Of a stretch of 34,927 nucleotides of DNA, positions 7,032-32,709 are shown one piece after another (the first letter of the stretch is position 1; every line of letters starts with the position of its first letter). A program made the translations under genes and the position numbers. Source of the DNA: an uncultured Bacillales bacterium. GTDB taxonomy: Bacteria > Bacillota_I > Bacilli_A > RFN20 > CAG-826. The stretch covers positions 1 to 34,927 of the forward strand of contig CAMOQM010000001.1 of assembly GCA_946622925.1 (NCBI GenBank). The letters are read 5' to 3'. The notes beneath the pieces were generated by a model. The model saw only the letters and a list, made by a program, of their open reading frames with translations. It was not told the origin of the DNA and did no database searches.

Positions 7032-7049
7032 TGAAAGGAGAATAGAACC

Positions 7050-7520: not shown

Positions 7521-7532
7521 GGAGAATAAGCC

Positions 7533-9635: not shown

Positions 9636-9720
9636 TTTCCAATACTTTGTATTGCTAATCGCGGCTAAAGGCTCTATCATTTAAAAGCCAATTTGCACAA
9701 CCTATTGGAGGAAAATCACA

Positions 9721-10914: not shown

Positions 10915-10934
10915 TATCCTTAGTTAAGATGATT

Positions 10935-10960
10935 AGCCTCGCTATATGCGGGGCTTTTTC
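10935..10960 (+). terminator. Rho-independent terminator of the str operon
   Basis: AGCCTCGC (10935-10942) / GCGGGGCT (10948-10955) with one G-U pair, loop TATAT, then TTTTT (10956-10960). Confidence 0.7.
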
Positions 10961-10974
10961 GTTGCCTGCAAAAC

Positions 10975-11009
10975 TTGGTATACCAAATTTGGTATGGTAA
11001 GTTTATAAT
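10975..11009 (+). promoter_or_regulatory. 12-bp perfect palindrome plus extra half-site and -10 box upstream of the HTH-DUF3990 gene
   Basis: TTGGTATACCAA (10975-10986) is self-complementary. A third TTGGTAT half-site is at 10989-10995 and TATAAT at 11004-11009. The ATG at 11016 lies only 7 nt after the -10. Confidence 0.5.
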
Positions 11010-17736: not shown

Positions 17737-17764
17737 TTTACAAAGCCCCGTTCATCCCTATAAT
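17737..17764 (+). promoter_or_regulatory. Promoter of the 13-kb surface/ABC/nuclease operon
   Basis: TTTACA (17737-17742), 16-nt spacer, TATAAT (17759-17764). The first ATG is at 17774 with no Shine-Dalgarno. Confidence 0.55.
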
Positions 17765-17773
17765 ATTTAGGAT

Positions 17774-19852
17774 ATGGAAAAAGCATATCTCTCCATGGCC
17801 TCTAACGGGGCTTCTAAAAAGAAGGGAATCAAGAAGCTGTTTGGTTTGGGTCTTTTGGCCGGCTTGACCGCCCTTTCTCTTTCTTTGATTTCCGGATTTA
17901 CTACCAGCACTAAGGCGAGCGAGGTTTTGGCTGGAAATGATGAAAGTGAGCAACTAGTTAGTAACGATGTGCTCACTTTTTCGGTTTCGACTTCGGCCGC
18001 GACCTCAAATTCGCATTCCTTCCAGTGTCAAGCTTCGGCTACTAAGATCGAAGCATTGTCCAACTCTTCAAGGCTAAACAACGTCTTCGTAATCGCTAAC
18101 GATTCCTCCTTCCCCGCCTCCATTACCGAGGCCGTCGATGCCGCTAAGGAAGCCCAAAAAGCCGCCGAGGATGCCGGAGAAGAATATGTCGCTCCGCACT
18201 ATAACGCCTCCGTCTATTGCGTCTATAATGCCACGGAAGCCAATTCCGATATCGTTATCCCTTCCACCGTCAATTACGCCGGCTATTTCGTCTTTGATGT
18301 CACTTCGATTGGCCCCGAAGCTTGCTACGACCACGAAAACCTCAAGGAAATCAGCTATAACAATATCGATTCGATAACCATCCCATCGACCATTAAGACC
18401 ATCGTTCCCAACGCCTTCATCGGCGCCAAGGAAGCCGGCATTAAGTTCTATGTCCAAGCCGCTGATTCAACCGGATTTGAACCTGGTTGGACCGATGCCG
18501 AAGACATCACCTATAGCGCCGATATGTCCTCGGCTAGAAGCAAACTCAACGTTTCCGCCGCCGCCGGCATCCGTCTATTTGGCGAAAGTAAGGACTTCCT
18601 AATCGGCATCAAGCGCGAAGGCTATGATTATCCTTTAATCGCCCAATATCGTTTGCTCGACTCCGCCAATAAGCAAGTTGGCGATCTCCGTAGAATCGAG
18701 CTCCCCATAACCTCCACCAATGCCGACTATGACGCCGTCGGTTCTAGCATGGGAAGTTCCACCAAAACCTTCGTCGTCGATATTCCCGTCCCCGATGGAC
18801 TCCATGTCGATGATAAGTCATTAACCTTTCATAACGTCTACGCCGCCAAGCGTGTCGAAGAACCCGGCAAAGGCTATGTTACCGTCCCCGACCTCGAAGA
18901 AGGCGAGTATTATGCGGTTCCCCGTTTCGCCTTTGAGCAGACCGCGACCTTCGAAACCCTCTTTACCAACCGTCCCGGCTCCTTGAACTCCTTCGGCGAT
19001 TTCACCAAGGTCGGTTTAATCGTCAAACGCGAATTAAGCGCTTATGAAGCTTTGCTTCCTAGGGCCTATGCCAACTATAAGAAAGAAATCCTTTCCGGAG
19101 CCTATTCCATCCGTCACCAATTCACCTCTTTGGCTCAGTCGACTTACCATATCACCTATGAAGTCAATGGTGGCCTCGTGACCAAAGACGTTAAGGTTTC
19201 TACTCCGATTACCAACGCCATCATCAATTCCACCGGTGAATACGAAGTCGGCTTCCTTATCAATAACGCCGACGTCGGTCCTGGATTCTCCGCCGATTCG
19301 CTAAAGGATATCGACATCTGCGGATTCTCAATTAAGATCGACCTTCTTAACAACGAAAAGAATTCCCGTGTCAATAAGTCTGACCTTACCATCCGTTTCT
19401 CTTCATTAACTTTAATTAAGTCCGGATCGGTCGAACCCGCGGCCAAAATCAACGTCACCTTGACCACTGTCTTGGTATTCGTTATCTACGCCGCTATCTA
19501 CGCCGCCGTGGTAACCGCCTATTACTTCTACGCCAAGAATAAATATAAGAACGATGAATTCCGCCGCGTCGACGGCAAGAAGTTCCTTAAGTCCGCCATC
19601 AAAAACGGCATCGGACTTGGCATTTTGGTGGGAGCCATCTTCTTCATCTATGCCCGTTGGGGACTATTTGAATCGACCGTCGTCGTCTATAACCCGATCG
19701 ACGTCTTCGTCATCATCTTCTCCATCGCTGGCTTGATCTACGCTGGCTTTGCCATCAAGAACATCGTTACCTCTATTAAGAATAACCGCAAACGTAAAGA
19801 AGCCGCCCGTCTCCACCTCGATGAGGACAAAGACGAAGACGGTACCAACTAA
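17774..19852 (+). CDS. Large membrane-anchored surface protein with BspA-type LRR-like segment and three C-terminal TM helices
   Basis: N-terminal hydrophobic segment LFGLGLLAGLTALSLSLISGF. IVIPSTVNYAGYFVFDVTSIGPEAC...ITIPSTIKTIVPNAFIG resembles BspA-like leucine-rich repeats. C-terminal TM segments: LTTVLVFVIYAAIYAAVVTAYYFY, GIGLGILVGAIFFIY, VFVIIFSIAGLIYAGFAI. The start could instead be the ATG at 17795. Confidence 0.6.
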   Translation: MEKAYLSMASNGASKKKGIKKLFGLGLLAGLTALSLSLISGFTTSTKASEVLAGNDESEQLVSNDVLTFSVSTSAATSNSHSFQCQASATKIEALSNSSRLNNVFVIANDSSFPASITEAVDAAKEAQKAAEDAGEEYVAPHYNASVYCVYNATEANSDIVIPSTVNYAGYFVFDVTSIGPEACYDHENLKEISYNNIDSITIPSTIKTIVPNAFIGAKEAGIKFYVQAADSTGFEPGWTDAEDITYSADMSSARSKLNVSAAAGIRLFGESKDFLIGIKREGYDYPLIAQYRLLDSANKQVGDLRRIELPITSTNADYDAVGSSMGSSTKTFVVDIPVPDGLHVDDKSLTFHNVYAAKRVEEPGKGYVTVPDLEEGEYYAVPRFAFEQTATFETLFTNRPGSLNSFGDFTKVGLIVKRELSAYEALLPRAYANYKKEILSGAYSIRHQFTSLAQSTYHITYEVNGGLVTKDVKVSTPITNAIINSTGEYEVGFLINNADVGPGFSADSLKDIDICGFSIKIDLLNNEKNSRVNKSDLTIRFSSLTLIKSGSVEPAAKINVTLTTVLVFVIYAAIYAAVVTAYYFYAKNKYKNDEFRRVDGKKFLKSAIKNGIGLGILVGAIFFIYARWGLFESTVVVYNPIDVFVIIFSIAGLIYAGFAIKNIVTSIKNNRKRKEAARLHLDEDKDEDGTN

Positions 19853-19873
19853 AGGAAATAAAGGAGAGATAAT

Positions 19874-21841
19874 ATGGAAATCCGCATTAAGGACCTTACC
19901 AAAATCTTCCCCGGTGACGCGAAGAAGAATATCCGCGACACCATCGCCGTTAAGGATATGGACTTCACCGTCCCCGATGGCAAACTAGTCGGTTTACTCG
20001 GCCCCTCGGGCTGCGGCAAATCCACGACCCTTTATATGATTTCCGGCCTTCAAGTCCCAACTTCCGGCGAAGTTTGGTTCGGCGACCAGGAAGTCACCAA
20101 CCTCTCTCCTGAAAAGCGTGGTATCGGCTTAGTCTTCCAGAACTATGCCCTTTATCCGCATATGACCATCTATAAGAACATCGAATTCCCCTTAACTAAC
20201 CTTAAGGTCGAGGTTCCTTTGGTCACTTTCTACGATTTCACCTTAGAATTTGGCTACACCATGAAAGCCGATGACGAAGTCCAAGGTATCGTCAGATCTT
20301 TAGGTACCTTAGTCAGGAAAATCGGCTTAAAGAACAAGCAAGCCAGCATCGATCCTAAACTTGAAGGCAATAAACTCCATGTTACCGTCGTTCTCCATAA
20401 CGTCTCTCCCGAAGTCGCCAAATTGTTCAAGGAAAACGCCCCCAAGGTCGTTCCCTTTGAACTAATTAAAGAAAGCCAAGTCCAGACCAGCGAAGCTCTT
20501 TATGATTCTACCGTCAGGGCTACCATCAATAAGATCGGCGAAAACGAAAAGCTCCGTATTGCCATTAAAGGCAAATTAGGAACTAAGTTCGATACCCATA
20601 CCATCGACGAAACCATCAATTCCTTCGTCGGCGCCGCCAAAAATTTTGGTGTCATCGAATCTAAGCTCATCACCAAGACCTCGACCGGCTATGAATTAAT
20701 GGCTAACGTCCATGGCGTCCTCCATAAACAGCTCGATGAATTCATTAAGGCCATTAGCAACGCCCATAATTATCCCGGTGGAGTTGGATATACCATCCTC
20801 GCCGTCGATAACCGCGAATTCGAAAAGGCCGTCCGTGAATACCTAACCGGCGAAAAAGTCGGCTATAGCGATTTCAAACTCTATTTCGACAAGACCCACA
20901 CCAAAGTCTATTTCCGTCTTAAGAGGGTCAATAAGGATAAGGCCGCCGAACTCGTTAAGGAATTAACCCAAAGGCTCGACCTCTCCGATATCGAAATGGA
21001 TACCACCCAGGCCGTTACCCACCGTAAATTAACCAAAGAAGAACGCCGCGATATCGTTTACGATACCGCTAAGCTCGTCCAGGTTGACGAATACCTCGAA
21101 CGTAAGCCGAGTCAACTCTCCGGTGGTCAGCAGCAGCGTGTCGCTATCGCCCGTGCCTTAGTTAAGAAGCCTAGAGTTCTCTTGTTGGATGAACCTTTGT
21201 CTAACTTAGACGCCCGTTTACGTTTACAAACCCGTGAGGAAATCCGCCGTATCCAGCAAGAAACCGGCATCACCACCGTCTTCGTTACCCACGACCAGGA
21301 AGAAGCGATGTCGATTTCCGACCAAATCGTCGTTATGAAGCTCGGCGTCATGCAACAAATCGACGCCCCACAGGAAGTTTATAACAATCCCGCCAACCTC
21401 TTCGTTGCCCAATTCTTAGGCACCCCGCCGATCAACGTATTCCGTGGCCGCCTAGAAGGCAAGAAAGTCATGATTGGTCAAGATTGCGTCTATGAATCCA
21501 AGGAAGACTATGGCGATAAAGACGTCTACGTCGCCATCCGTCCCGAAGGTTTCATCATCGCCAAAGAAGGCGATAAGAACGTCCTCCATGCCGATATGGA
21601 AATGGTTCAGGTCTTAGGCCGTGATATCTCCATCGTTGCCATCAAGCCCAAAGGAACCGAACTCCTCACCAAGAAAGAGGACAAGAAGAAAGACGAGGAA
21701 GAAGAGAAGGCCCAGACCTTCAAGATCATCGTCGCCGCCGAAGATGCCGAAAAGGTCTCCGGCAAAGTTGCCGTCAAGGTCAAACCCAACAAACTATTCG
21801 TCTTCGATGGCGAAACCGAGGAAAGGATTGCCTTGAAGTAG
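19874..21841 (+). CDS. ABC transporter ATP-binding protein, MalK/UgpC type, with ~270-aa insertion in the helical subdomain
   Basis: Walker A GPSGCGKST, Q-loop VFQNYALYPH, signature LSGGQQQR, Walker B LLLDEPLSNLD, H-loop VTHDQ. 655 aa, versus roughly 360-370 aa for typical family members. Confidence 0.9.
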   Translation: MEIRIKDLTKIFPGDAKKNIRDTIAVKDMDFTVPDGKLVGLLGPSGCGKSTTLYMISGLQVPTSGEVWFGDQEVTNLSPEKRGIGLVFQNYALYPHMTIYKNIEFPLTNLKVEVPLVTFYDFTLEFGYTMKADDEVQGIVRSLGTLVRKIGLKNKQASIDPKLEGNKLHVTVVLHNVSPEVAKLFKENAPKVVPFELIKESQVQTSEALYDSTVRATINKIGENEKLRIAIKGKLGTKFDTHTIDETINSFVGAAKNFGVIESKLITKTSTGYELMANVHGVLHKQLDEFIKAISNAHNYPGGVGYTILAVDNREFEKAVREYLTGEKVGYSDFKLYFDKTHTKVYFRLKRVNKDKAAELVKELTQRLDLSDIEMDTTQAVTHRKLTKEERRDIVYDTAKLVQVDEYLERKPSQLSGGQQQRVAIARALVKKPRVLLLDEPLSNLDARLRLQTREEIRRIQQETGITTVFVTHDQEEAMSISDQIVVMKLGVMQQIDAPQEVYNNPANLFVAQFLGTPPINVFRGRLEGKKVMIGQDCVYESKEDYGDKDVYVAIRPEGFIIAKEGDKNVLHADMEMVQVLGRDISIVAIKPKGTELLTKKEDKKKDEEEEKAQTFKIIVAAEDAEKVSGKVAVKVKPNKLFVFDGETEERIALK

Positions 21842-21852
21842 GGGAGTAAGCT

Positions 21853-22947
21853 ATGGGAATTTCTTCGTTATTTAAAAAGAAATCCTTAACCGAACAACCG
21901 CCCACCCTTGGGGTTAACGAGCTTTTCGCCGAAGAGCGGCCCCAATACGAAGAAGGTTATGACAAAGAAAAAGACGTCATAATCCGCATGGTTGGCAAAA
22001 AGTCGGATAAGGCTTATCAAACCCGCGGCATCGAAGATGTCGGCGCAAAGAACAACTGGAAAGGTTGGCTCTATCTCGCCCCGGTCATCATTTTAGTCGC
22101 CGTCTTCTTAATCTATCCTTTGGTCAACACCATCTTCATCGCTTTCACTAGCAATTACAAGTACGCTTCCGGCGAATTCGATGGATTGACCCTTACCAAC
22201 TTCACCTATATCTTGGGCTTAACCGCCTCATCGACGGGCGCGGTTGAAAAAGACTTTGTCAATTACGCCTTGCCCAATACCTTCCTAGTCGTCATCATCA
22301 CCGTTCCGGTATCAACGATGTTATCGTTACTTATCGCGGTCGCCCTTAACTCCATTAAGTGGTTCCAGAAGATTCTCCAAACCATCTTCTTCCTGCCTTA
22401 TGTAACTAACACCATCGCCGTCGGTATGGTCTTCTCGGTTATCTTTGATAAATCCGGTGTTATTAACTTTCTATTCGGAACCGAAACCACTTGGATTTAT
22501 GGGGCCGATAGATGGACCGCCATGGTGCCTTTGATGCTCTACATCGTTTGGGGCTCTATCCCATTTAAGATCTTGGTCTTACTATCTGGCTTACAAGGTA
22601 TCGATAAGCAGTATTATCAAGCCGCTCAAATCGACGCCGCCCCGAAGTCTAAAGTCCTCTTTAAGATCACCGTTCCTCTCTTATCGCCGCAGATCCTATA
22701 TCTCCTTATCACCTCCTTCATCGGGGCGTGGAAGGAATATACGGCCGTCGTCGGCTTGTTCAATGGTCCGGGTACCCTGGGTAAGTCCTCAACCGATAAG
22801 AACATGCTAACCGTCGTCTACTACGTTTACGATAACTTGCAGACCAATACCTCGTCCGCCGCCGCGGCCGCCGTATTGCTATTTGTCATCATCTTAGTCT
22901 TCACCGCCTTGCAATTCTGGGCGTCGAAGAAGAGGGTCCATTATTAA
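21853..22947 (+). CDS. ABC transporter permease (MalF/UgpA-like)
   Basis: Multiple TM segments and an EAA-type loop, IDKQYYQAAQIDAAPKSKVLFKITVPLLSP. Confidence 0.85.
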   Translation: MGISSLFKKKSLTEQPPTLGVNELFAEERPQYEEGYDKEKDVIIRMVGKKSDKAYQTRGIEDVGAKNNWKGWLYLAPVIILVAVFLIYPLVNTIFIAFTSNYKYASGEFDGLTLTNFTYILGLTASSTGAVEKDFVNYALPNTFLVVIITVPVSTMLSLLIAVALNSIKWFQKILQTIFFLPYVTNTIAVGMVFSVIFDKSGVINFLFGTETTWIYGADRWTAMVPLMLYIVWGSIPFKILVLLSGLQGIDKQYYQAAQIDAAPKSKVLFKITVPLLSPQILYLLITSFIGAWKEYTAVVGLFNGPGTLGKSSTDKNMLTVVYYVYDNLQTNTSSAAAAAVLLFVIILVFTALQFWASKKRVHY

Positions 22948-22959
22948 GGAGGTATCGAC

Positions 22960-23952
22960 ATGGAAAATCAAAATACTGCCCCAGTAATGGCCAAACAAAC
23001 TTACATCGACTTCAAAAACGTCAAGGTCAATGACGATATCGTCTTATCCTTGGAAGAAGCCGGCAAAACCGTCGACGCGATTAAGCGTGCAGAGAAGGTC
23101 AGCCATATCATCATGACGATATTCACCTATATCTTCATCTTGGCTCTAGCTTTAGTGGTGGTCTTCCCCTTCTACTGGATGATCATCACCTCCTTAAAGC
23201 AAAACGACGAAATCCGGGCGGCCCAACAGACCTTCTTCCCGACCATCGTCATGTGGAGCAACTACACCCACGTCTTCCAGGTCTTCGACTTCGTGACCTA
23301 TATGAAGAACACCGTCGTCGTCGCCATATTCTCGACGATCGGTACCTTGCTTACCACCATCTTAGCGGCCTTCGCCTTCGCAAGGCTTCGCTTCAAAGGC
23401 AAGGAATCCGTCTTCGCTATCTTCCTAATGACGATGATGATTCCAGGCGAAATGATGGTTATTACCAACTACATCACCGTCGCTTCATTTGGCTGGGTTG
23501 GTGAGAACCAAACCTTGATGGATGCCTATCTTGCCATGATCGTTCCGTTCTGGATCTCGGTCTTCTACATTTATTTGCTAAGACAGAATTTCAAACAGAT
23601 TCCAAATGAATTATACTTAGCAGCTAAAGTGGACGGGAAATCCGACTGGTCCTACCTCTGGAAAGTCATGGTCCCGCTTGCCTCCCCAACCTTAATTTCC
23701 ATCACCATCTTGAAGTTCATGGGTACCTGGAACTCCTATGTCTGGCCTAACTTAGTCACTTCTAAGTCCGAGTATAGGTTAATCTCCAATGGTCTTCGTG
23801 GTTCGGCCTTCGTCGATATCGACATGGGTATCACCTTCTATGGTTATCAAACCGCCGCGACCATGTTAGTCACCGTGCCTTTGTTCCTCCTCTTCATCTT
23901 CTTCAGGAAGTACATCATGAAAGGCGTCGGGCGCGCCGGCATCAAAGGCTAA
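22960..23952 (+). CDS. ABC transporter permease (MalG/UgpE-like)
   Basis: EAA-type loop ELYLAAKVDGKSDWSYLWKVMVPLASP. AAGGAGG RBS. Confidence 0.85.
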   Translation: MENQNTAPVMAKQTYIDFKNVKVNDDIVLSLEEAGKTVDAIKRAEKVSHIIMTIFTYIFILALALVVVFPFYWMIITSLKQNDEIRAAQQTFFPTIVMWSNYTHVFQVFDFVTYMKNTVVVAIFSTIGTLLTTILAAFAFARLRFKGKESVFAIFLMTMMIPGEMMVITNYITVASFGWVGENQTLMDAYLAMIVPFWISVFYIYLLRQNFKQIPNELYLAAKVDGKSDWSYLWKVMVPLASPTLISITILKFMGTWNSYVWPNLVTSKSEYRLISNGLRGSAFVDIDMGITFYGYQTAATMLVTVPLFLLFIFFRKYIMKGVGRAGIKG

Positions 23953-24026
23953 TCGCCCCTTAATCACATTGGTTTATCCTGCGTCGTGCAGATAAATAGA
24001 AATCTTTATTGAAAAGGAGAATGAAA

Positions 24027-25487: not shown

Positions 25488-25556
25488 TCTAACTACTTAA
25501 GTAGTTTGAATTAAATCTCAATTACCCCCGCCCTTCTGGGCAAAAGGAGAAAGACC

Positions 25557-27023
25557 ATGAGCAAAAAACCATTCGCATTGATCTTGCCGCTATTAGGTGC
25601 TTCTTTAGCCAGCTGTGGCGGGGGTAGTACAACTCCTGTTTCCGATAATATCGAGGTTCCCTTCTGGACCACTTTCGGCCAAAAGAACCTTGAGGCTTTG
25701 AAAAAGAAAGCCGCCGATTTCTCGACCCTTATCGAAAAAAACACCGGGAAAAAGGTCACCATCAACGTGACTTACGAAGGTGGTTATGACGAAGTCAGGG
25801 ACAAAGTTACCAACGGTTTCTCCGCCGGCAACGTCCCGACTATGGCCATCGCTTATCCCGACCACGTCGCTAACTATTTGGCTAACGAGCCCAAAGCCGG
25901 CGACTACGTTTACAATATCGAGAGTTACATGAACGACGCCGAAATTGGTTTCGGTAAGCAAAAATTCCTTGGCGACACCGCCGGCATCGACGATTTCGTC
26001 GAAGCTTTCATCGACGAAGGAACCCACTATATCCAAAAAGGCACCTATTCGTTGCCGTTCATGAAATCCTCCGAGGTTATGTTCTATAACTTCGATGCCG
26101 TCAAAGCCGGTATGACTACCTACAAAGTAGGGGATGAAAAATACGACCAAATCCGGGCTTCCGACGACAAGATCAAGAAATATCTTTCGACCATGACTTG
26201 GGATGAGCTCCTTGATTTCTCCAAGCATTGCCTTGCCAATAAGTCCACGGTCCTAGATACCATGAAGCAGCCGATTTGGTATGACTCCGATTCCAACCTC
26301 TTCATTTCGAAGATGTTCCAAGAAAAGATTCCCTATTGCTCCATCGGCAGCGATAGCAAAGGCATCATCGGATTCGAGTCCGGCGAAAATAGGACCAAGG
26401 CCGAAGCCTTCGTCACTTCGCTTGTTACCGCTAGGAGAGAAGGATTAATCACCACCAAAGGCGTGGAAAACACCTATGGCTCCGATTCCTTCACCCATGG
26501 CGAATCCATCTTCGAAATCGGTTCGAGCGGTGGAACCGGCTATACCATGCCAGAAGGTGGTTCCTTCGAAGTCGGCGTTACCCGCGTTCCCGCTTCCAAT
26601 AACAATCCTTTATATGTTTCCCAAGGTCCGACCATCACTTTCTTAAAGAACCCGGCTAAGAGCAAAGAAGAAAACGATCAGAGGATGAAATATGCTTGGC
26701 AATTCGCCAAATATATCACCAACCCCGATTCCAACGTCTATCTTTGCATCTATGGTTCGGAAGGATATCTCCCCGTTAGATACAGTTCCTACGAAACCCC
26801 GGAATTCTTTGAATTCTTGGATGGTGGCGAAATCTATGCCGATACCGCCCGCGTCTTAATTGATGACATCAACGGCCGTTACTTCAACGCTCCGGTTTTC
26901 AAAGGCTCGGCTGGCTTACGCGACCAGTGCGGTGGCATCATCACCGGCGCTTTGCTTGGCGATAAAGGCACCGTCACCCAATTATTCGACGCCGCCATCA
27001 CTAATGCGAAGAAAGGATTCTAA
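25557..27023 (+). CDS. Extracellular solute-binding lipoprotein 2 (family 1 SBP)
   Basis: MSKKPFALILPLLGASLASCGG lipobox. Collinear similarity to SBP1 (FWTTFGQ.. vs FWSTFND..; YPDHVANYL vs YPDSVQELM; FEIGSSGGTGY vs FSVGSTGGSGY). Confidence 0.8.
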   Translation: MSKKPFALILPLLGASLASCGGGSTTPVSDNIEVPFWTTFGQKNLEALKKKAADFSTLIEKNTGKKVTINVTYEGGYDEVRDKVTNGFSAGNVPTMAIAYPDHVANYLANEPKAGDYVYNIESYMNDAEIGFGKQKFLGDTAGIDDFVEAFIDEGTHYIQKGTYSLPFMKSSEVMFYNFDAVKAGMTTYKVGDEKYDQIRASDDKIKKYLSTMTWDELLDFSKHCLANKSTVLDTMKQPIWYDSDSNLFISKMFQEKIPYCSIGSDSKGIIGFESGENRTKAEAFVTSLVTARREGLITTKGVENTYGSDSFTHGESIFEIGSSGGTGYTMPEGGSFEVGVTRVPASNNNPLYVSQGPTITFLKNPAKSKEENDQRMKYAWQFAKYITNPDSNVYLCIYGSEGYLPVRYSSYETPEFFEFLDGGEIYADTARVLIDDINGRYFNAPVFKGSAGLRDQCGGIITGALLGDKGTVTQLFDAAITNAKKGF

Positions 27024-27025
27024 CC

Positions 27026-28459
27026 ATGAAAGCCCGTCTCCCATTAATCTTTGTTTTATCGATTTCGATGCTTGCCGCTTGCGGTGGGAATACCCCTTCC
27101 TCCGCGGCCACTAAGTCGCAATCTGATGCCAATTGGGTCGATTATGCCCATAATGGCTCCATCAAATTGTCCTTAGACTATAAGAACCGTTCCTTTGCCA
27201 AAGATGGCATCGAGCAGGTTACCTTGTTTAACGCCATCGATGGAGATACCGCCCATTTCTCGCCGACCGTCAATAAGAACGACGATTTGATCAAATCCCG
27301 TTTCTATGGCGTCGATACCCCCGAATCCACCGGTAAGGTTCAACCTTATGGCAAAGAAGCTTCCCATTACACCGCGGAAGTTCTAGATAAAGCCAACAAG
27401 AACGGCACCATCGTCGTTTCTAGCGCCCAAACCACCTATGGTTTGCCTCAGCCTGATAGCACCGGATCTCGTTATCTCTCCCTTATTTGGGTCAATACCG
27501 AGAAGAAGAATGCCTCGATTGATGAGCTTTATCTTCTCAACCTCATGATCGTCCAAGAAGGTTACTCCTGGGTTAAGAACCTTTCCGATATGCCTTCTTA
27601 TAGTTCCACCTTCCTCGCCGCCGAAAGCCAGGCCAAGGAATATAAATTGAATTTACATTCCGGTCAGCCCGCCCCCTTATTCAACTATGGCGATTACGAA
27701 GACGCTTCTTTACTCGACATCAAGAAAGAAGTCGTGGCCCAACTTAACGATCCTAACCACAAAAACGCCTTCGACAACAAGAAGGTCCGTGTCCAAGGCA
27801 CCGTCGCTGGTTTTGCTAACCACATCATCTATATTCAGGACTTCTATCCCGAATATGATGAAAACGGTAACGAAAAGGTCGATGCCCAAGGCAAAGTCAT
27901 CGGCGAATATGCCGGTATCAACATCTTCTGCGGCATGGGTTCGGTTTATTCCAAATTCACCACCCCCAATGCTTACATTCAGGTTTGCGGCTTGGCCTTA
28001 GATAGTGATTTCGGCTTCCAAATCACCGACGTCACCCTACCCGCCGTCAGCTATGACGAAAACGATGGCAAGGTCATCATCCCAGCCGCCTCTAACATCG
28101 AAGAACATGCCTTGCATACCTTCGAATACACTTCGGCCGAGCTGGACCAAGTCGTCGCCGATAAGACTTATGAATCCCTTTATTGCGCCGTTAAGGTGAC
28201 CACTCCTTTGAAGGTTAGGTCCGCTAACTACACCAATAAGGCGATGTACTTATACTTCGAAGATGCTAACTTCGATGCCTATTACACTTTCAACTATCAG
28301 CCCGAAAAAGGCACGACCTGGCAAAATGCCGAGGACATGGAAGGCAAAACCTTCTATGTTTCCGGTGTCTTAGCCACCCATACCACGACTAGCGGCAAGC
28401 TTAGGATCCAAATCTATCCTAGAAGCAGCGCCGACCTAGTCTACGTTCCCGAAGCATAA
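27026..28459 (+). CDS. Membrane lipoprotein nuclease: staphylococcal (thermo)nuclease domain plus C-terminal OB-fold-like domains
   Basis: Lipobox LSISMLAACGG. NAIDGDTAHF, SRFYGVDTPES, YGKEASHYT, LMIVQEGYSWV, AESQAKEYKLNLHS align motif-for-motif with staphylococcal nuclease (AIDGDT, R..LVDTPE, YGPEAS, EALVRQGLAKV, SEAQAKKEKLNIWS). Confidence 0.85.
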   Translation: MKARLPLIFVLSISMLAACGGNTPSSAATKSQSDANWVDYAHNGSIKLSLDYKNRSFAKDGIEQVTLFNAIDGDTAHFSPTVNKNDDLIKSRFYGVDTPESTGKVQPYGKEASHYTAEVLDKANKNGTIVVSSAQTTYGLPQPDSTGSRYLSLIWVNTEKKNASIDELYLLNLMIVQEGYSWVKNLSDMPSYSSTFLAAESQAKEYKLNLHSGQPAPLFNYGDYEDASLLDIKKEVVAQLNDPNHKNAFDNKKVRVQGTVAGFANHIIYIQDFYPEYDENGNEKVDAQGKVIGEYAGINIFCGMGSVYSKFTTPNAYIQVCGLALDSDFGFQITDVTLPAVSYDENDGKVIIPAASNIEEHALHTFEYTSAELDQVVADKTYESLYCAVKVTTPLKVRSANYTNKAMYLYFEDANFDAYYTFNYQPEKGTTWQNAEDMEGKTFYVSGVLATHTTTSGKLRIQIYPRSSADLVYVPEA

Positions 28460-28468
28460 GGAGGAAAC

Positions 28469-28942
28469 ATGTACTGCACCCATTGCGCTAAGAAAATCGA
28501 CGAAGCCAAAGTGGAAGCCAAGTCTTCTTCCTATTTGTTATCCGAAGAAGTGGGGGATGCCACCCAAATCAATTATGTCTGCCCCCGTTGCGGACATTTG
28601 ATCCATGCTGACATTTCCGAAGCCGAGACCAAATCTTTGGCTCAGGCCGCCCACGCCCAAATCCAAAGGGCCCGTAACTTCTTCGCCTCCGGCATGGGCA
28701 TGGTTTCCGTTGGAGCCATCGCCATTGTCATCGCCATCTTGTTCTTCTTCCTCGCGAAGAAGCCATCCAACCAATACAGGTTGGTCGTCAACTGCCCCGA
28801 ATTCTATGTATTCGTGGTGTTGGCCACTATTGCGGTTATTCTCCTAGGCTTAGGAATCGGATTCGTTATTGAAGGCTACCGCCGTAAAAAAGCGAACTCC
28901 ACCTTGCTAAAGGACATTAACAATCCGACCTTCGTACAGTAA
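28469..28942 (+). CDS. Zinc-ribbon membrane protein (2 TM)
   Basis: CTHC...(34 aa)...CPRC at the N-terminus. Two hydrophobic helices: MGMVSVGAIAIVIAILFFFL and FYVFVVLATIAVILLGLGIGFVI. Confidence 0.6.
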   Translation: MYCTHCAKKIDEAKVEAKSSSYLLSEEVGDATQINYVCPRCGHLIHADISEAETKSLAQAAHAQIQRARNFFASGMGMVSVGAIAIVIAILFFFLAKKPSNQYRLVVNCPEFYVFVVLATIAVILLGLGIGFVIEGYRRKKANSTLLKDINNPTFVQ

Positions 28943-28992
28943 GTTCGATTCATAAAACAGCTTTTCATTGATCCAGAATAAGGAGGAATTTC

Positions 28993-30807
28993 ATGAAAAA
29001 AGCATTCATCATCCCGATGCTCGCCATTGCTGCCTTCGGCTTAGTCGCTTGCAACAACGGCCAACCCAGCAGCTCCGAGAGCTCTACCAGCACCAAAGCT
29101 CCCTTCGTCGCCGAGACTGTTACCATTGATAACAAGGACGGCCTCAAAGCTTTGTGGCGCGTCGGTTTCGACAACCGTGCCGTTGACATCACCGTCAAAG
29201 ACGCTTCCGGCAATCCTGGTAACCCCTCGGCTCTCGTCACCAGTGGCGAAATGACCGTTACTTCCAGCAACACCGCCGCCGTTAAGGCCTTAGGTTTATC
29301 CCTAATCCCCGTCGCCCCCGGTAAATCCACCATCACCGTTGCTATCAACGGCAAGACCGACACCGTCGAAGTCGAAGTCAAGGAAAAGAGAGCCGAAGCT
29401 GGCGTCGATGCCATCCTTCAAGAATTCGCTAACCTCGCCAAAGGCTCCTACACTGAAGAAAGCGTTCCCTGCGTCGGCGTCGTTTCCCGTTACGAAACCT
29501 TCTACAATGCCAAAGACAAGAACGTCACCGTTTGGATCAAGGATGCCGAAGGAACCAAGGAAATCGAACTTTATAAGGTTCCTGGCGCCAAGGGCGTCGA
29601 TCTCTCTGATTTGATCCCTGGCGATACCGTCCACGTTGAAGGTAAGATCCAAAACTACAACGGAACCTTCGAATATACCGCCGCTGGTTCCATCACCAAA
29701 GTCGACAAGATCGCTCGTCCGACCCCGGCCACCCGTCCGGAACCCACCGAAACCACTATCGATGCCATCATCGAGAAGCAGGCCAAGGAAATGGGTGTTG
29801 AATACAAGGTCGAAGGTATCTGGGAAAATGGCAAGGGCGATGACTATGGCAATGGTTATCTCACCAACCCCGAAACCGGTAAGTCCATCCAAGTCTATGG
29901 TTCTACCGCTACCGAAACCGCCATTGAATTCAATGGTTTAACCGGATCTCCGTTATATGTCTTCACCAACCCCAAGGATGCCAAGACCACCCTTAAGGAC
30001 CTCAAGAACGGCATGAAGGTTACTGCCAACGCCCTCAACATCACCTATGTTAGCAGCGACGGCAAGAAGATTACCCCTGAAGTCGCCTTAGTCGTTAAGA
30101 AGACCGAAGCCGTCGAGACCAAATATGCCGCTTCTGCTGCCGCTGTCGAGAATGGCACCGTCGAACTCAGTAAGACCGCTGACCTTGCTTATGGCGAAGA
30201 AGTCACCGTTACTGCTACGCCGAATGAAGGCTTTAAAGTAACCAAGATTGAAGTTGATCATGGCTATGGTAAGGAAGACATCACCGAAGCCAAAAAGTTC
30301 AAAGCCACAGTTAGCAACAAGGTTATTGTCACAATCAAGACCGAATCTGGCGATGATATGTCGACGTTGAAATATCCCGGCGGCACAACTACAAATATGA
30401 CCGAGCACGATAATGCCACGGCCGTTGGACTAAATGCCTCCGTCTTCACTGTTGATGCTGCTATGGGCGAACGTGGCGACATCTATCCTGGTCTCAATAA
30501 AGCAGGTTATATCGCTCTCTATTCCAAGAAGTCCGCCGAAGCTACTGGTGAAGGATCGAGCTTCACTGTCACCGTCAAAGAAGGCCTCGTTATCAAGAGC
30601 ATCACTGTTGACTATAAGCAGAATGCTGAATATGCCAAAGTTTTCGTCGGCGATCAAACTGTCACCGGAACTGAAGGCGTATATACTATTAATGCCAGGT
30701 CTTTCACCGTTATGAACGGTTACAAATCCGACGGAACTGCTAGCCAGCAAGTTCACGTCAGGGGTATCGACATTATCTATGGCGAACCTGCCACTCCCAA
30801 TAATTAA
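28993..30807 (+). CDS. Surface lipoprotein with Ig-like (Big_2-like) domain, OB-fold-like modules and an InlB-B-repeat-like segment
   Basis: Lipobox LAIAAFGLVACNNG. VTSSNTAAVKALGLSLIPVAPGKSTITVAINGKTDTVEVEV is Big_2-like. CVGVVSRYETFY...VTVWIKD...GDTVHVEGKIQNYNGTFEY is OB-like. VENGTVELSKTADLAYGEEVTVTATPNEGFKVTKIEV resembles a divergent InlB B-repeat. Confidence 0.6.
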   Translation: MKKAFIIPMLAIAAFGLVACNNGQPSSSESSTSTKAPFVAETVTIDNKDGLKALWRVGFDNRAVDITVKDASGNPGNPSALVTSGEMTVTSSNTAAVKALGLSLIPVAPGKSTITVAINGKTDTVEVEVKEKRAEAGVDAILQEFANLAKGSYTEESVPCVGVVSRYETFYNAKDKNVTVWIKDAEGTKEIELYKVPGAKGVDLSDLIPGDTVHVEGKIQNYNGTFEYTAAGSITKVDKIARPTPATRPEPTETTIDAIIEKQAKEMGVEYKVEGIWENGKGDDYGNGYLTNPETGKSIQVYGSTATETAIEFNGLTGSPLYVFTNPKDAKTTLKDLKNGMKVTANALNITYVSSDGKKITPEVALVVKKTEAVETKYAASAAAVENGTVELSKTADLAYGEEVTVTATPNEGFKVTKIEVDHGYGKEDITEAKKFKATVSNKVIVTIKTESGDDMSTLKYPGGTTTNMTEHDNATAVGLNASVFTVDAAMGERGDIYPGLNKAGYIALYSKKSAEATGEGSSFTVTVKEGLVIKSITVDYKQNAEYAKVFVGDQTVTGTEGVYTINARSFTVMNGYKSDGTASQQVHVRGIDIIYGEPATPNN

Positions 30808-30822
30808 TAGTTTATAAAATCT

Positions 30823-30854
30823 AAAGCGTCTAGGTTCGCCTAGGCGCTTTTCTT
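30823..30854 (+). terminator. Strong rho-independent terminator ending the 13-kb operon
   Basis: AAAGCGTCTAGG (30823-30834), loop TTCG, CCTAGGCGCTTT (30839-50), running into TTTTCTT. Confidence 0.8.
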
Positions 30855-30866
30855 ATAGGCACAGCT

Positions 30867-30906
30867 ATGTTGTAAATTGTTGTAAAATGTTGTAAATTGT
30901 TGTAAA
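30867..30906 (+). repeat. 4 x 10-bp tandem repeat (A/T)TGTTGTAAA, equivalent to 2 x 20 bp ATGTTGTAAATTGTTGTAAA
   Basis: Read directly: atgttgtaaa ttgttgtaaa atgttgtaaa ttgttgtaaa. It ends 12 nt before the ATG at 30919 and contains a possible promoter: TTGTAA (30870-75), 17 nt, TAAATT (30893-98). Confidence 0.9.
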
Positions 30907-32641: not shown

Positions 32642-32709
32642 GGCTTGAAGTAAACCAGCTAACTTTGGATTACTTCCTAAAACATGTCTTTTGGCGGATA
32701 ATATCGCGG

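What the first reader, a model, noticed from the sequence alone, without database searches (positions are those of the whole stretch)
17774..30854. Nine-gene operon combining a surface nuclease, OB-fold lipoproteins and a sugar-type ABC importer: putative extracellular nucleic-acid scavenging machine
There is one promoter (17737-17764) and one strong terminator (30823-30854). Intergenic gaps are 2-74 nt. The gene order is LRR-like membrane protein, ABC ATPase, 2 permeases, 2 paralogous SBP lipoproteins, SNase-domain lipoprotein, Zn-ribbon membrane protein, Ig/OB-like lipoprotein.

From memory, membrane nuclease genes of Mycoplasma species (the MG186 / MPN133 / mhp379 type) sit beside ugpC/A/E-like ABC transporter genes, and a role in nucleotide-precursor acquisition has been proposed. 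This locus is a much expanded version, with dual SBPs and extra OB-fold and LRR surface proteins. The actual transported substrate is unknown.
Basis: partly seen in the sequence, partly recalled or inferred. Interest (0 to 1): 0.6.

Follow-up and report, generated by a model that had tools for sequence, protein, structure and literature searches.

The report
Surface nuclease coupled to phosphodiester-type importer
An uncultured, small-genome gut bacterium that cannot make its own DNA/RNA building blocks carries a strongly conserved operon joining a surface DNA/RNA-cutting enzyme and nucleic-acid-binding surface proteins to an ABC importer whose binding proteins look like dinucleotide/phosphate-ester binders; it is an expanded relative of the mycoplasma nuclease-transporter operon whose cargo has never been identified.

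Summary
Nine co-directional genes (17774-30807) lie between the best sigma-70-like promoter of the region and a strong hairpin terminator, with gaps of 2-74 nt, Shine-Dalgarno sites from g2 to g9 and no significant internal terminator.

- The nuclease keeps every SNase catalytic and metal residue.
- The family profile of the two binding proteins ranks the Thermus dinucleotide (U3G) binder 7C0F first and G3P-binding UgpBs next. They keep the Tyr/Ser/Ser/Tyr phosphate tetrad but lack UgpB's glycerol Trp clamp.
- 27 of 34 of them hit the mycoplasma 'P68 lipoprotein' model. In mycoplasma genomes I found P68 lipoprotein, SNase lipoprotein, then a homologous ATPase.
- Near-complete relatives lack PurH and OMP decarboxylase.
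- In one sister family an NrnA-type and an IMPase-type gene abut the transporter.

New here: the ATPase's 270-aa insert, gene 1's conserved membrane anchor and the Zn-ribbon protein always occur together. A pair of RDD membrane-protein genes flanks the operon on either side in most fetched loci.

The principle is published for Mycoplasma and Izemoplasma. This scan has noted the same locus type 31 times on other DNA.

The parts
17737..17764 (+). Sigma-70-like promoter TTTACA-16-TATAAT. The -10 box ends 9 nt before the first ATG of g1.
   Evidence: Best match (11 of 12) in the region; sequence read. Function not shown.
17774..19852 (+). g1: 692-aa surface protein. It has an N-terminal signal or anchor helix, a beta-rich ectodomain (a short BspA-type LRR stretch plus Ig-like sandwiches) and a highly conserved C-terminal three-helix membrane module with cytoplasmic motifs KNKYKNDEFRRV and KLKLDxD..DDGTK. 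It is either leaderless or starts at Met8 (17795).
   Evidence: AF2 pLDDT 87, pTM 0.71. Foldseek: 4oju LRR at prob 1.0, otherwise tandem beta-sandwiches with poor superposition. 4gt6 E = 1.6e-5. Alignments: the C-terminal motifs are invariant or nearly so, and Met8 is at least 90% conserved.
19874..21841 (+). g2: UgpC/MalK-type ABC ATPase, 655 aa.
   Evidence: ABC_tran 1.9e-35; UgpC model 5.9e-101, below its equivalog cut-off.
20210..21019 (+). Orphan insert of about 270 aa (aa 113-382) inside the ATPase, between the FPL motif and the LSGGQ signature.
   Evidence: 138 homologues, all ATPases of about 636-657 aa from uncultured gut Bacilli. No Pfam or PDB relative. 40% mean identity against 92% (N-terminal core) and 69% (C-terminal part). 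It co-occurs with g1's anchor and with g8.
21853..22947 (+). g3: UgpA/MalF-type permease.
   Evidence: BPD_transp_1 1.1e-20; UgpA is the best NCBIfam hit.
22960..23952 (+). g4: UgpE/MalG-type permease.
   Evidence: BPD_transp_1 1.9e-15; UgpE is the best NCBIfam hit.
24009..25487 (+). g5: SBP1 lipoprotein of the UgpB/dinucleotide-binder clade. The probable true start is the ATG at 24027. It has the strongest codon bias of the operon.
   Evidence: SBP_bac_8 2.8e-26. Family profile against PDB. Phosphate tetrad Y85, S167, S326/T327, Y398 plus R456. C3 rank 8 of 713. RBS position.
25557..27023 (+). g6: SBP2 lipoprotein, an old paralogue of SBP1 (30% identity) with different group-conserved residues at UgpB pocket-aligned positions.
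   Evidence: SBP_bac_8 1.3e-22. Its PDB hits are only the 7C0F series. SBP1 and SBP2 are separate clades, each with 100/100 support. Column differences.
27026..28459 (+). g7: lipoprotein nuclease. SNase domain (about aa 60-215) plus two C-terminal beta-barrels (252-334 with OB topology; 349-473).
   Evidence: SNase 1.1e-10; family profile against PDB 7e-18. Invariant C19, D72, G73, D74, T75, R92, D97, T98, P99, E100 in 68 sequences, with R149 at least 90% conserved there and invariant in the 18-sequence set. AF2 pLDDT 92.6. Foldseek TM 0.85 to staphylococcal nuclease.
28469..28942 (+). g8: 157-aa membrane protein with an N-terminal CxxC...CxxC Zn ribbon (predicted cytoplasmic) and two TM helices.
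   Evidence: Four Cys invariant in 78 of 78 sequences; TM at about 75-97 and 112-135. Present wherever the ATPase insert is present.
28993..30807 (+). g9: 604-aa modular lipoprotein (Ig-like, OB-fold, InlB B-repeat, variable C-terminus). Candidate nucleic-acid-binding surface protein. Its length varies from 245 to 1223 aa among relatives.
   Evidence: Flg_new_2 1.4e-6; tRNA_anti-codon 3.4e-4 (below the cut-off) in the window's copy. In the family: OB in 7 of 18 (6e-10) and Big_2 in 5 of 18. Lengths.
30823..30854 (+). Intrinsic terminator: 12-bp stem AAAGCGTCTAGG/CCTAGGCGCTTT followed by a T-rich tail.
   Evidence: -25.3 kcal/mol, z = -4.8. Equivalent hairpins follow g9 in relatives.
32665..33837 (+). 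Linked neighbour 1: 390-aa membrane protein, RDD-like (below the Pfam cut-off). Separated from g9 in this window by the terminator and an inserted AAA_14 gene.
   Evidence: RDD 1.2e-4, 22.8 bits against a cut-off of 24.1. Lies next to the operon in relatives.
33837..34835 (+). Linked neighbour 2: 332-aa RDD-family membrane protein. A homologue lies downstream of g9 in the closest relatives and upstream of g1 in most others.
   Evidence: RDD 9.7e-10. Found on the upstream side in 5 + 42 loci, on the downstream side in 7 + 9, and not within the fetched stretch in 8 + 29. RDD genes also abut the ATPase in short-form loci of other families.

Best explanation
This is a nucleic-acid foraging operon. 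The steps below are marked as shown or inferred.

(1) Inferred: extracellular DNA or RNA is held at the cell surface by the OB/Ig lipoprotein g9 and by the nuclease's own C-terminal barrels.

(2) Inferred from intact catalytic residues: the lipid-anchored SNase-type nuclease g7 cuts it. By the established chemistry of staphylococcal nuclease, the products are 3'-phosphorylated mono-, di- and short oligonucleotides.

(3) Inferred from the clade and the binding-site residues: two lipoprotein binding proteins of the UgpB/dinucleotide-binder clade capture these phosphate-bearing products. Each probably takes a different subset.

(4) Family assignment shown, cargo inferred: a UgpA/E-type permease pair, energised by a UgpC-type ATPase, imports them.

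(5) Inferred from gene linkage in a sister family: a cytoplasmic NrnA-type nano-oligonucleotidase and an IMPase/CysQ-type phosphatase trim the imports to salvageable nucleotides or nucleosides. The organism appears unable to make these de novo.

In this sub-clade three extra parts always travel together: g1's conserved membrane anchor, the Zn-ribbon membrane protein g8 and a 270-aa insert in the ATPase. They probably form an accessory module on the transporter. Its role is unknown.
For: Operon anatomy.

Conservation: the core of ATPase, two permeases, one or two SBPs and an SNase lipoprotein is kept in 19 of the 20 loci from 8 families of the order; the 20th (L030) is a short contig that begins at the SBP. 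The motif search matched at least 585 relatives in the species-representative genomes, and the 80 best loci all carry the long-form nuclease.

Nuclease: catalytic and metal residues are invariant or nearly so. The model is confident and superposes on SNase.

SBPs:
- The family profile hits the 7C0F series (U3G dinucleotide binder; identity confirmed in PMC12718374 Table S5) at 5e-37, UgpB at about 1e-34, and true sugar binders at 1e-18 or weaker, over the N-lobe only.
- The phosphate tetrad is kept in 33-34 of 34 sequences and the Arg is invariant. UgpB's Trp clamp and Glu are replaced.

Homology to the mycoplasma operon. Published model for that operon: PMC3585158 and PMC4045577 (MslA binds ssDNA and dsDNA).

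Auxotrophy: no PurH, OMP decarboxylase or dNK in G000 or in four relatives that are 92-95% complete, while the controls are positive.

Processing enzymes: NrnA and IMPase genes are fused to the locus in family f5. They form an adjacent pair in all 5 genomes searched, and overlap by 4 nt in G000.

Expression proxy: all nine genes fall in the top 1-21% for the C-ending codon bias that peaks at tuf and fusA.
Against: Nothing is shown biochemically.

Nucleobase permeases exist in all four near-complete relatives, so the operon is not the only salvage entry. G000 also has a Bmp-type protein.

All NCBIfam matches to Ugp components fall below the equivalog cut-offs. A glycerophosphodiester or other phosphoester cargo cannot be excluded from sequence.

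The NrnA/IMPase linkage is physical only in one family (two genera). NrnA is a housekeeping enzyme in Bacilli.

The absence of de novo pathways rests on one marker each.

Codon bias is an indirect proxy for expression.
Confidence: 0.65

Rival explanations
1. It is a Ugp-type importer for glycerol-3-phosphate or glycerophosphodiesters (lipid head groups or teichoic-acid fragments). The nuclease is a co-located phosphodiesterase or phosphate-scavenging enzyme, not a supplier of the cargo.
For: The best NCBIfam names for all four transporter components are UgpC, UgpA, UgpE and UgpB. The phosphate tetrad is shared with G3P and GPC binders. UgpB is hit by 31 of 34 SBPs. gpsA lies 2 kb upstream.
Against: UgpB's glycerol-holding Trp clamp and Glu are replaced in the whole family. 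The top structural relative is the dinucleotide binder, not UgpB. All scores are far below the Ugp equivalog cut-offs. This reading does not explain the order-wide linkage to an SNase, to OB-fold proteins and, in family f5, to NrnA and IMPase.
Confidence: 0.12
2. The cargo is dephosphorylated nucleosides. The nuclease and an unidentified surface phosphatase produce nucleosides, and the SBPs bind those.
For: The Izemoplasma work argues that nucleotides must be dephosphorylated before uptake (PMC8289736). Bmp-type nucleoside SBPs were not found in four near-complete relatives, which leaves a gap that this system could fill.
Against: No nucleotidase or phosphatase with a signal peptide is encoded in the operon. 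The phosphate-coordinating tetrad is kept under strong conservation, which would be unnecessary for nucleosides. The linked phosphatase-type genes in family f5 have Pfam matches (DHH/DHHA1, Inositol_P) that cover nearly the whole proteins, leaving little room for a signal peptide. Export signals were not tested directly.
Confidence: 0.12
3. It is an ordinary CUT1 oligosaccharide importer, and the nuclease and OB lipoprotein genes happen to lie downstream.
For: The Pfam family SBP_bac_8 and the permease family are those of sugar importers. Some SBP family members weakly hit carbohydrate-SBP models. Public annotations call the ATPase a sugar-transport subunit.
Against: Sugar binders rank about 20 orders of magnitude below phosphodiester binders and align only over the N-lobe. 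The nuclease linkage is conserved in 19 of the 20 relatives' loci, across 8 families, and in mycoplasmas. There are no glycoside hydrolases in the locus.
Confidence: 0.04
4. The nuclease's main role is not nutrition. It serves to degrade biofilm matrix DNA, competitors' DNA or host DNA traps, and the transporter linkage is secondary.
For: Mycoplasma homologues degrade neutrophil extracellular traps and are cytotoxic (PMC9740415).
Against: These are gut and rumen commensal MAGs. The linkage to an importer, and in one family to cytoplasmic oligonucleotide-processing enzymes, points to uptake. The two roles are not mutually exclusive.
Confidence: 0.05

Closest known systems
Mycoplasma 'putative nucleotide transporter' operon: P80/MslA/P68-type lipoprotein, SNase lipoprotein (MAG_5040, mhp379, MPN133, MG186, MGA_0676) and UgpC/A/E-like ABC genes (PMC3585158, PMC4045577, PMC9740415)
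   Same: It has a lipid-anchored SNase-type nuclease, an SBP-like lipoprotein and a Ugp-like ATPase with two permeases in one gene string. Homology is shown here at three positions. The organism is a nucleotide auxotroph with a small genome, and in this genus probably has no wall. A large insert sits at the same site of the ATPase.
   Different: The gene order differs: ATPase, permease, permease, SBP, SBP, SNase here, against SBP, SNase, ATPase, permease, permease in mycoplasmas. The genetic code is the standard one, with no in-frame TGA. There are two SBPs of about 490 aa rather than one of about 700 aa. The nuclease carries two extra C-terminal barrels. Added genes are g1, g8 and g9, plus the linked RDD pair. 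The ATPase insert is unrelated in sequence. The SBPs score far below the P68 equivalog cut-off (best E = 7e-15, against a cut-off of 200 bits).
Thermus thermophilus dinucleotide (U3G)-binding protein of an ABC transporter, PDB 7C0F series (Chandravanshi et al. 2021, FEBS J 288:4614; cited in PMC12718374)
   Same: It is the best solved-structure relative of the SBP family (5e-37, near full length). It shares the Tyr/Ser/Ser/Tyr phosphate tetrad and also lacks UgpB's Trp clamp.
   Different: The similarity is distant, and the window's SBPs are about 80 aa longer with extra loops. At UgpB Glu66 the Thermus protein keeps Glu, whereas this family has Pro. Whether the Thermus gene has a nuclease neighbour was not examined. 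The ligand of the window's SBPs is untested.
E. coli / marine UgpBAEC sn-glycerol-3-phosphate importer (4AQ4, 6X84, 9LFF)
   Same: All four transporter components are closest to Ugp in NCBIfam. The phosphate tetrad and the conserved Arg are shared.
   Different: The Trp clamp and the Glu that hold glycerol are absent. Scores are far below the equivalog cut-offs. There is no ugpQ-like gene in the locus. Nuclease and OB proteins are attached.
Ca. Izemoplasma / Hujiaoplasma nucleic-acid degradation loci (PMC8289736, PMC10470597)
   Same: Extracellular nuclease genes are co-localised with ABC transporter genes in wall-less relatives of Bacilli. The authors read this as coordinated DNA degradation and uptake, and they note that the best hits of the SBP also lie beside nucleases. 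The Hujiaoplasma locus includes NrnA and is induced by DNA/RNA.
   Different: Those loci hold several nucleases, phosphohydrolases and a phosphate transporter. Homology of their components to this operon was not tested here. They come from marine sediment rather than gut, and g1, g8 and the ATPase insert are not described there.
Bacillus subtilis YhcR (from my own knowledge): a wall-anchored sugar-nonspecific nuclease with OB-fold, SNase and 5'-nucleotidase domains
   Same: An SNase domain is combined with OB-fold nucleic-acid-binding domains on the cell surface.
   Different: YhcR carries its own nucleotidase domain and is not encoded with an ABC importer. Not tested here.

Membership tests
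Mollicute SNase-ABC 'nucleotide transporter' operon | Surface lipoprotein with an SNase (thermonuclease) domain and intact active site | tested here: met
   Lipobox Cys19 and D72, G73, D74, T75, R92, D97, T98, P99, E100 are invariant in 68 sequences; R149 is at least 90% conserved there and invariant in the 18-sequence set. Pfam SNase is above the cut-off. Foldseek TM is 0.85.
Mollicute SNase-ABC 'nucleotide transporter' operon | Ugp/CUT1-like ATPase and two permeases in the same gene string as the nuclease | tested here: met
   The mycoplasma ATPase N-terminal part is 50-61% identical to g2.
Mollicute SNase-ABC 'nucleotide transporter' operon | SBP-like lipoprotein of the P80/MslA/P68 type | tested here: inconclusive
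   27 of 34 SBPs hit NF045826 (best E = 7e-15), but far below its 200-bit cut-off. They are homologous, not equivalogs. That MslA or P80 itself belongs to NF045826 was not verified. What was verified is only that true P68 members sit upstream of an SNase-like lipoprotein and the ATPase.
Mollicute SNase-ABC 'nucleotide transporter' operon | Gene order: SBP-like lipoprotein, nuclease, ATPase, permeases | tested here: not met
   Here the order is g1, ATPase, permease, permease, SBP1, SBP2, nuclease, g8, g9. In mycoplasma loci it is P68, nuclease, ATPase.
Mollicute SNase-ABC 'nucleotide transporter' operon | Co-transcription of lipoprotein, nuclease and ABC genes (shown by RT-PCR in M. agalactiae) | not testable with these tools
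Only the anatomy supports it: one promoter, one terminator, short gaps.
Mollicute SNase-ABC 'nucleotide transporter' operon | Polynucleotide binding by the SBP-like lipoprotein (MslA) | not testable with these tools
   Needs EMSA or ITC with purified protein.
UgpB/phosphodiester-binding clade of CUT1 solute-binding proteins (G3P, GPC and U3G binders) | Two Tyr and two Ser that coordinate the phosphate, strictly conserved in the clade and absent from glucose binders (PMC12718374) | tested here: met
   Y85 in 33 of 34, S167 in 33 of 34, S326/T327 with a hydroxyl in 34 of 34, Y398 in 33 of 34. Mapped through real E. coli UgpB and the 7C0F fragment. The residue mapping is by alignment, not by structure.
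UgpB/phosphodiester-binding clade of CUT1 solute-binding proteins (G3P, GPC and U3G binders) | Closest solved relatives are phosphodiester binders rather than sugar binders | tested here: met
   7C0F series 5e-37; UgpB 3e-34 to 2e-33; Mtb UspB/UgpB about 1e-23; best sugar binder 9e-17, partial.
sn-glycerol-3-phosphate-specific UgpB | Double-Trp clamp, plus the Glu that holds the glycerol moiety | tested here: not met
   The Trp columns are D/S/A and F/L/I/M/Y (no Trp). Glu66 is Pro in 31 of 34. NCBIfam UgpB scores 41 bits against a cut-off of 411.
OB-fold nucleic-acid-binding domain (PF01336), for g9 | Match above the Pfam gathering score | tested here: inconclusive
   The window's copy scores 20.9 bits against a cut-off of 27. 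7 of 18 family members match, with the best at 6.4e-10.
OB-fold, for the nuclease C-terminal half | Sequence or structural match to a known OB domain | tested here: inconclusive
   The AF2 topology at 252-334 is beta1-3, helix, beta4-5. hhalign against g9 gives prob 0.5%. There are no PDB or Pfam profile hits. The Foldseek list is filled by SNase variants.
BspA-type LRR (PF13306), for g1 | Several LRR_5 repeats above the Pfam cut-off | tested here: not met
   Only 2 of 10 family members reach E = 0.011. The profile hit to 4gt6 covers about 75 residues, and 4oju aligns over about 130 residues. This is a short LRR-like segment only.
RDD family (PF06271), for the linked neighbours | Match above the Pfam gathering score | tested here: met
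   The 332-aa protein scores 39.3 bits against a cut-off of 24.1. The 390-aa protein scores 22.8 bits, just below. RDD genes lie beside the ATPase in L021, L023, L024, L025, L026 and L029.

The most novel reading that the evidence does not exclude
The importer carries intact 3'-phosphorylated di- or short oligonucleotides, with the two SBPs splitting the substrate range. In this clade it is also built as a larger membrane machine. g1's conserved cytoplasmic loop and tail, the cytoplasmic Zn ribbon of g8 and the orphan 270-aa ATPase insert contact one another, possibly together with the RDD proteins. That would physically or regulatorily couple surface capture and cleavage of nucleic acid to ATP-driven uptake. 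It would be a new kind of accessory module on a type I ABC importer, and a nucleic-acid counterpart of a polysaccharide-utilisation locus.
Probability: 0.2. Interest if true: 0.75.

Novelty: new variant of a known kind. Interest (0 to 1): 0.5.

Why it matters
Mycoplasma researchers proposed in 2007-2013 that a surface nuclease feeds a neighbouring ABC importer. The imported molecule has never been identified, and mycoplasmas are hard to manipulate.

This lineage offers the same core in standard genetic code. Its two compact binding proteins carry a phosphate-binding signature, lack the glycerol-specific residues, and are closest to a known dinucleotide binder. That gives a concrete ligand hypothesis (3'-nucleotides or dinucleotides) that can be tested with proteins made in E. 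coli.

If the hypothesis holds, many 'sugar' or 'glycerol-3-phosphate' transporter annotations in gut Bacilli and mollicutes would need correcting. The motif scan matched at least 585 relatives of the nuclease in species-representative genomes, although transporter linkage was checked only in the 100 fetched loci. It would also show how nucleotide-auxotrophic gut bacteria live on the abundant nucleic acid of the gut.

Two features have no described precedent that I could find and may point to unknown ways of regulating or scaffolding ABC importers:
- the co-inherited trio of g1 anchor, g8 and ATPase insert;
- the persistent RDD neighbours.

Tried and rejected
- Genetic code 4. The ORFs are identical under tables 11 and 4 and there are no in-frame TGA codons, so this is not a TGA=W organism.
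- Looking for named Mycoplasma homologues with the search for homologous proteins (insert region; SNase region). Only close uncultured relatives were listed, so this gave no bridge. The bridge came from NCBIfam and a class-wide genome search instead.
- Reading the primary MslA and mhp379 papers. They are not held, so I used secondary citations.
- Searching the literature for 'P68 family surface lipoprotein': no paper found.
- Relating the nuclease's C-terminal half to g9's OB domain or to any PDB or Pfam family: nothing significant.
- Relating the ATPase insert to any known domain or to the mycoplasma insert: nothing.
- Foldseek on g1: only generic tandem beta-sandwiches (arrestin, VPS26 and Fab, with rmsd of about 20 A). 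I rejected these as functional leads.
- Internal hairpins after g4, SBP1 and g8: not significant.
I used the 5-kb loci already delivered.
- The Bmp-type protein on G000 contig C9 was not examined further.

Full report
WHAT IS THERE. The window holds nine co-directional ORFs from 17774 to 30807. They read identically under tables 11 and 4. Pfam and NCBIfam give the following:
- g1: no family;
- g2: a UgpC/MalK-type ABC ATPase of 655 aa, whose ABC domain is split by about 270 extra residues;
- g3 and g4: UgpA/UgpE-type permeases;
- g5 and g6: two SBP_bac_8 lipoproteins, 30% identical to each other;
- g7: a lipoprotein with an SNase domain;
- g8: a small protein with a CxxC...CxxC motif;
- g9: a lipoprotein with an InlB B-repeat and a sub-threshold OB-fold match.

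The promoter TTTACA-16-TATAAT at 17737-17764 is the best match in 14.5 kb, although such matches as a class are no more frequent than chance. The terminator at 30823-30854 was not listed by the consensus scanner on the + strand. It folds as a 12-bp GC-rich stem with a T-rich tail (-25.3 kcal/mol, z = -4.8). Gaps are 2-69 nt, or 2-74 nt if SBP1 starts at the ATG at 24027; that start is likelier because the AAGGAG site lies inside the TTG-extended ORF. Genes g2-g9 have good Shine-Dalgarno sites. The longer gaps hold no significant hairpin. The -10 box ends 9 nt before g1's first ATG, so g1 is either leaderless or starts at Met8 (17795), the start that aligns across orthologues.

THE ORGANISM. 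The window lies in a MAG of 1.03 Mb that is 60% complete. Named relatives carrying the same nuclease are uncultured gut and rumen Bacilli: 'Clostridium sp. CAG:288', Ca. Enterosoma, Ca. Onthovivens and 'uncultured Mollicutes'. NCBI files them as incertae sedis. The following were not found in the window's genome or in four relatives that are 92-95% complete, while control genomes were positive:
- PurH (de novo purine synthesis);
- OMP decarboxylase (de novo pyrimidine synthesis);
- deoxynucleoside kinase.

No PBP transpeptidase was found in the three congeners. A relative from another family with the same operon has three. The genus therefore looks like a wall-less nucleotide auxotroph with the standard genetic code. 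Each absence rests on one marker. Nucleobase permeases are present, so the operon is not the only salvage entry.

CONSERVATION. I fetched 20 loci from 8 families of the order. In 19 of them the string of ATPase, permease, permease, one or two SBPs and an SNase lipoprotein is kept; the 20th (L030) is a short contig that begins at the SBP. A large variable protein usually follows. The full nine-gene 'long form' occurs in 10 of these loci, and in all 66 of the 80 best loci from species-representative genomes whose contig reaches the ATPase. The motif scan matched at least 585 relatives.

THE NUCLEASE. The lipobox Cys and the SNase residues D72, G73, D74, T75, R92, D97, T98, P99 and E100 are invariant in 68 orthologues. 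They correspond to staphylococcal D19, D21, T22, R35, D40, T41 and E43. R149 (R87) is at least 90% conserved there and invariant in the 18-sequence set. The AlphaFold model is very confident (pLDDT 92.6, pTM 0.87) and superposes on staphylococcal nuclease at TM 0.85. The C-terminal half forms two beta-barrels, the first with the classic OB strand order. Neither profile searches nor hhalign link it to a known OB family, so that label stays provisional.

THE BINDING PROTEINS ARE THE MOST INFORMATIVE PART. Taken singly, both SBPs have the PDB 7C0F series among their best hits. PMC12718374 (Table S5 and text) identifies that entry as the Thermus thermophilus protein that binds the dinucleotide uridylyl-3'-5'-guanosine (U3G). 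With a 34-sequence family profile:
- this series ranks first (5e-37, near full length);
- G3P-binding UgpBs follow (about 1e-34);
- then the M. tuberculosis GPC binder (1e-23);
- real oligosaccharide binders start at 9e-17 and align only over the N-lobe.

The same paper defines the clade by two Tyr and two Ser that coordinate the phosphate. It defines G3P specificity by a double-Trp clamp, with a Glu, a Gly and an Arg that bind the glycerol hydroxyls. I mapped these through the real E. coli ugpB sequence and the 7C0F fragment:
- the tetrad falls on Y85, S167, S326/T327 and Y398, kept in 33-34 of 34 sequences;
- the Arg is invariant;
- the Trp positions are D/S/A and F/L/I/M/Y, with no Trp;
- the Glu is Pro in 31 of 34.

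So the pocket is built for a phosphate ester that is not glycerol phosphate. SBP1 and SBP2 form separate clades, each with 100/100 support, and each includes the copy from another family. Short-form lineages duplicated their SBP independently at least three times. The two groups also differ at group-conserved positions that align with the UgpB pocket. Two specificities are likely.

LINK TO MYCOPLASMA.
- In M. agalactiae the lipoprotein P80, the SNase MAG_5040 and three ABC genes are co-transcribed, and the authors propose nucleotide-precursor import (PMC3585158).
- MslA, the M. gallisepticum homologue of the lipoprotein, binds ss and dsDNA (PMC4045577 citing Masukagami 2013).
- Reviews repeat the model.

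I then tested homology directly. 27 of 34 SBPs hit the NCBIfam model 'P68 family surface lipoprotein' (best 7e-15, below its cut-off). True members of that model occur in 21 of 399 sampled genomes of the class; 19 of the 21 are in one family, and all have 0.6-0.9 Mb genomes with in-frame TGA. In 10 of 12 such loci, the P68 gene is followed by a lipoprotein gene of about 300-340 aa, and then by an ABC ATPase 50-61% identical to g2's N-terminal part. Nine of the ten middle genes carry DGDT, R-IP-x-IDTLEE and YDR motifs. They match this lineage's nuclease family by hhalign (87%, E = 4e-6). The two systems are thus homologous at three positions, but the gene order differs.

OTHER PRECEDENT. Loci joining extracellular nucleases to ABC transporters are also published for Ca. 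Izemoplasma (PMC8289736). A cultured relative up-regulates such a locus, which includes NrnA, on DNA/RNA (PMC10470597).

CYTOPLASMIC PROCESSING. In the two genera of family f5, three genes lie immediately upstream of the ATPase: a DHH/DHHA1 (NrnA-type) gene, an inositol-monophosphatase-family gene and an RDD gene. In the window's genome and four relatives the NrnA-like and IMPase-like genes are adjacent elsewhere. In G000 they overlap by 4 nt. From general knowledge, NrnA degrades 2-5-nt oligonucleotides and pAp, and the IMPase family includes the CysQ 3'-phosphatases. These are the activities needed to trim 3'-phosphorylated nuclease products. This is linkage evidence from one family, not proof.

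EXPRESSION PROXY. All nine genes rank between 8th and 149th of 713 ORFs for C-ending codon use. That bias peaks at tuf (rank 2) and fusA (rank 5). The flanking genes rank from 332nd to 693rd.

NEW FEATURES OF THIS VARIANT.
(a) The ATPase insert has no relative in Pfam or PDB. Its homologues are confined to about 138 ATPases of uncultured gut Bacilli.
(b) g1 is modelled confidently (pLDDT 87). It has an ectodomain with a short BspA-type LRR stretch and Ig-like sandwiches, on three long helices. Its cytoplasmic loop (KNKYKNDEFRRV) and tail (KLKLDxD..DDGTK) are much better conserved than the ectodomain.
(c) g8 has four invariant Cys and two TM helices.
(d) The insert, g1's anchor and g8 co-occur. 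This holds in 10 of 10 and 65 of 66 loci with the insert; the two exceptions are cut by contig ends. None of the nine loci without the insert has g1. Because all long-form loci form one clade, this is a single evolutionary event and not independent replication.
(e) A pair of RDD-family membrane-protein genes (window 32665-34835) lies downstream of g9 in the closest relatives and upstream of g1 in most others: 47 loci on the upstream side and 16 on the downstream side. RDD genes also abut the ATPase in short-form loci of other families. Relatives have a terminator between g9 and the RDD genes, so the pair is a linked but separate unit. In this window an AAA_14 gene has been inserted between them.
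(f) A mycoplasma ATPase carries an insert of about 300 aa at exactly the same site. It is Lys/Glu-rich and unrelated in sequence.

VERDICT. This is a real, probably highly expressed operon. Its most likely job is to cut extracellular nucleic acid at the cell surface and import the phosphorylated fragments (confidence 0.65). The specific cargo, 3'-nucleotides or dinucleotides, is an inference. Rival readings are a glycerophosphodiester importer, a nucleoside importer, a plain sugar importer and a non-nutritional nuclease; each is less well supported. The principle is known from Mycoplasma and Izemoplasma, and this scan has noted the same locus type in at least 31 other genomes, including an eight-to-nine-gene form in gut Bacilli. 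I therefore class it as a new variant of a known kind. Its value is that it makes the long-unknown cargo testable in standard-code proteins, and that it exposes an undescribed accessory trio and the RDD linkage.

LIMITS. There are no transcript data and no biochemistry.

Noticed in passing
window 30919-32613: The AAA_14 ATPase gene (564 aa, AT-rich, C3 rank 693 of 713) sits between the operon terminator and the RDD pair. In relatives such as L013, L014, L016 and L017 the RDD genes follow g9 directly, so this gene looks like an insertion. A 54%-identical copy lies at the same side of the operon in G005 (L011).
   Followed up: partly
window 30867-30906: Four tandem 10-bp repeats (TGTTGTAAA plus A/T) fill the space between the operon terminator and the AAA_14 start codon.
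   Followed up: no
L113:3886-5346 (mycoplasma-type genome G111, code 4): The ABC ATPase next to the mycoplasma SNase gene carries a Lys/Glu-rich insert of about 300 aa at exactly the same point (after FPLKN, before KKPTRLSGGQ) as the window's 270-aa insert. hhalign finds no relationship (prob 0.2%). Short-form relatives of the window's own order have no insert.
   Followed up: partly
G000 contig C92:2619-4354 (- strand): The NrnA-like DHH/DHHA1 gene (317 aa) and the IMPase-family gene (261 aa) overlap by 4 nt. The same adjacency occurs in four relatives. In family f5 the pair is fused to the nuclease-ABC locus.
   Followed up: partly
G000, G007, G008, G016 (whole genomes): No PBP transpeptidase domain was found in three 92-95%-complete genomes of this genus or in G000, whereas G020 from a sister family has three. 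The genus may be wall-less while using the standard genetic code.
   Followed up: partly
window 17759-17776: The TATAAT box ends 9 nt before g1's first ATG and there is no Shine-Dalgarno site. This is either a leaderless mRNA, or the true start is Met8 at 17795, which aligns with the start of most orthologues.
   Followed up: partly
window 24009-24029: The SBP1 ORF as listed starts at a TTG, but the AAGGAG ribosome-binding site lies inside it. The ATG at 24027 (MSFKKIVLP...) is the probable start.
   Followed up: yes
window 7000-11000 and 18000-30000: Two blocks of raised GC (0.47-0.56) and negative GC skew stand out from a background of about 0.38-0.45. They are the rpsG-fusA-tuf region and the operon. 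Both reflect strong C-ending codon bias rather than foreign origin.
   Followed up: yes
L022:17685-19931 (G001): In this short-form relative the genes upstream of the ATPase are a second permease pair and an AAA_33 kinase-like gene rather than RDD genes. An RDD332-like match lies elsewhere in the stretch.
   Followed up: no
L019:8955-10835 and L020:9955-11898 (G015, G016): The nuclease orthologues here are 626-647 aa, with an extra segment of about 150 aa inserted between the SNase domain and the C-terminal barrels. L029 has a different insert of about 140 aa after the SNase domain.
   Followed up: no
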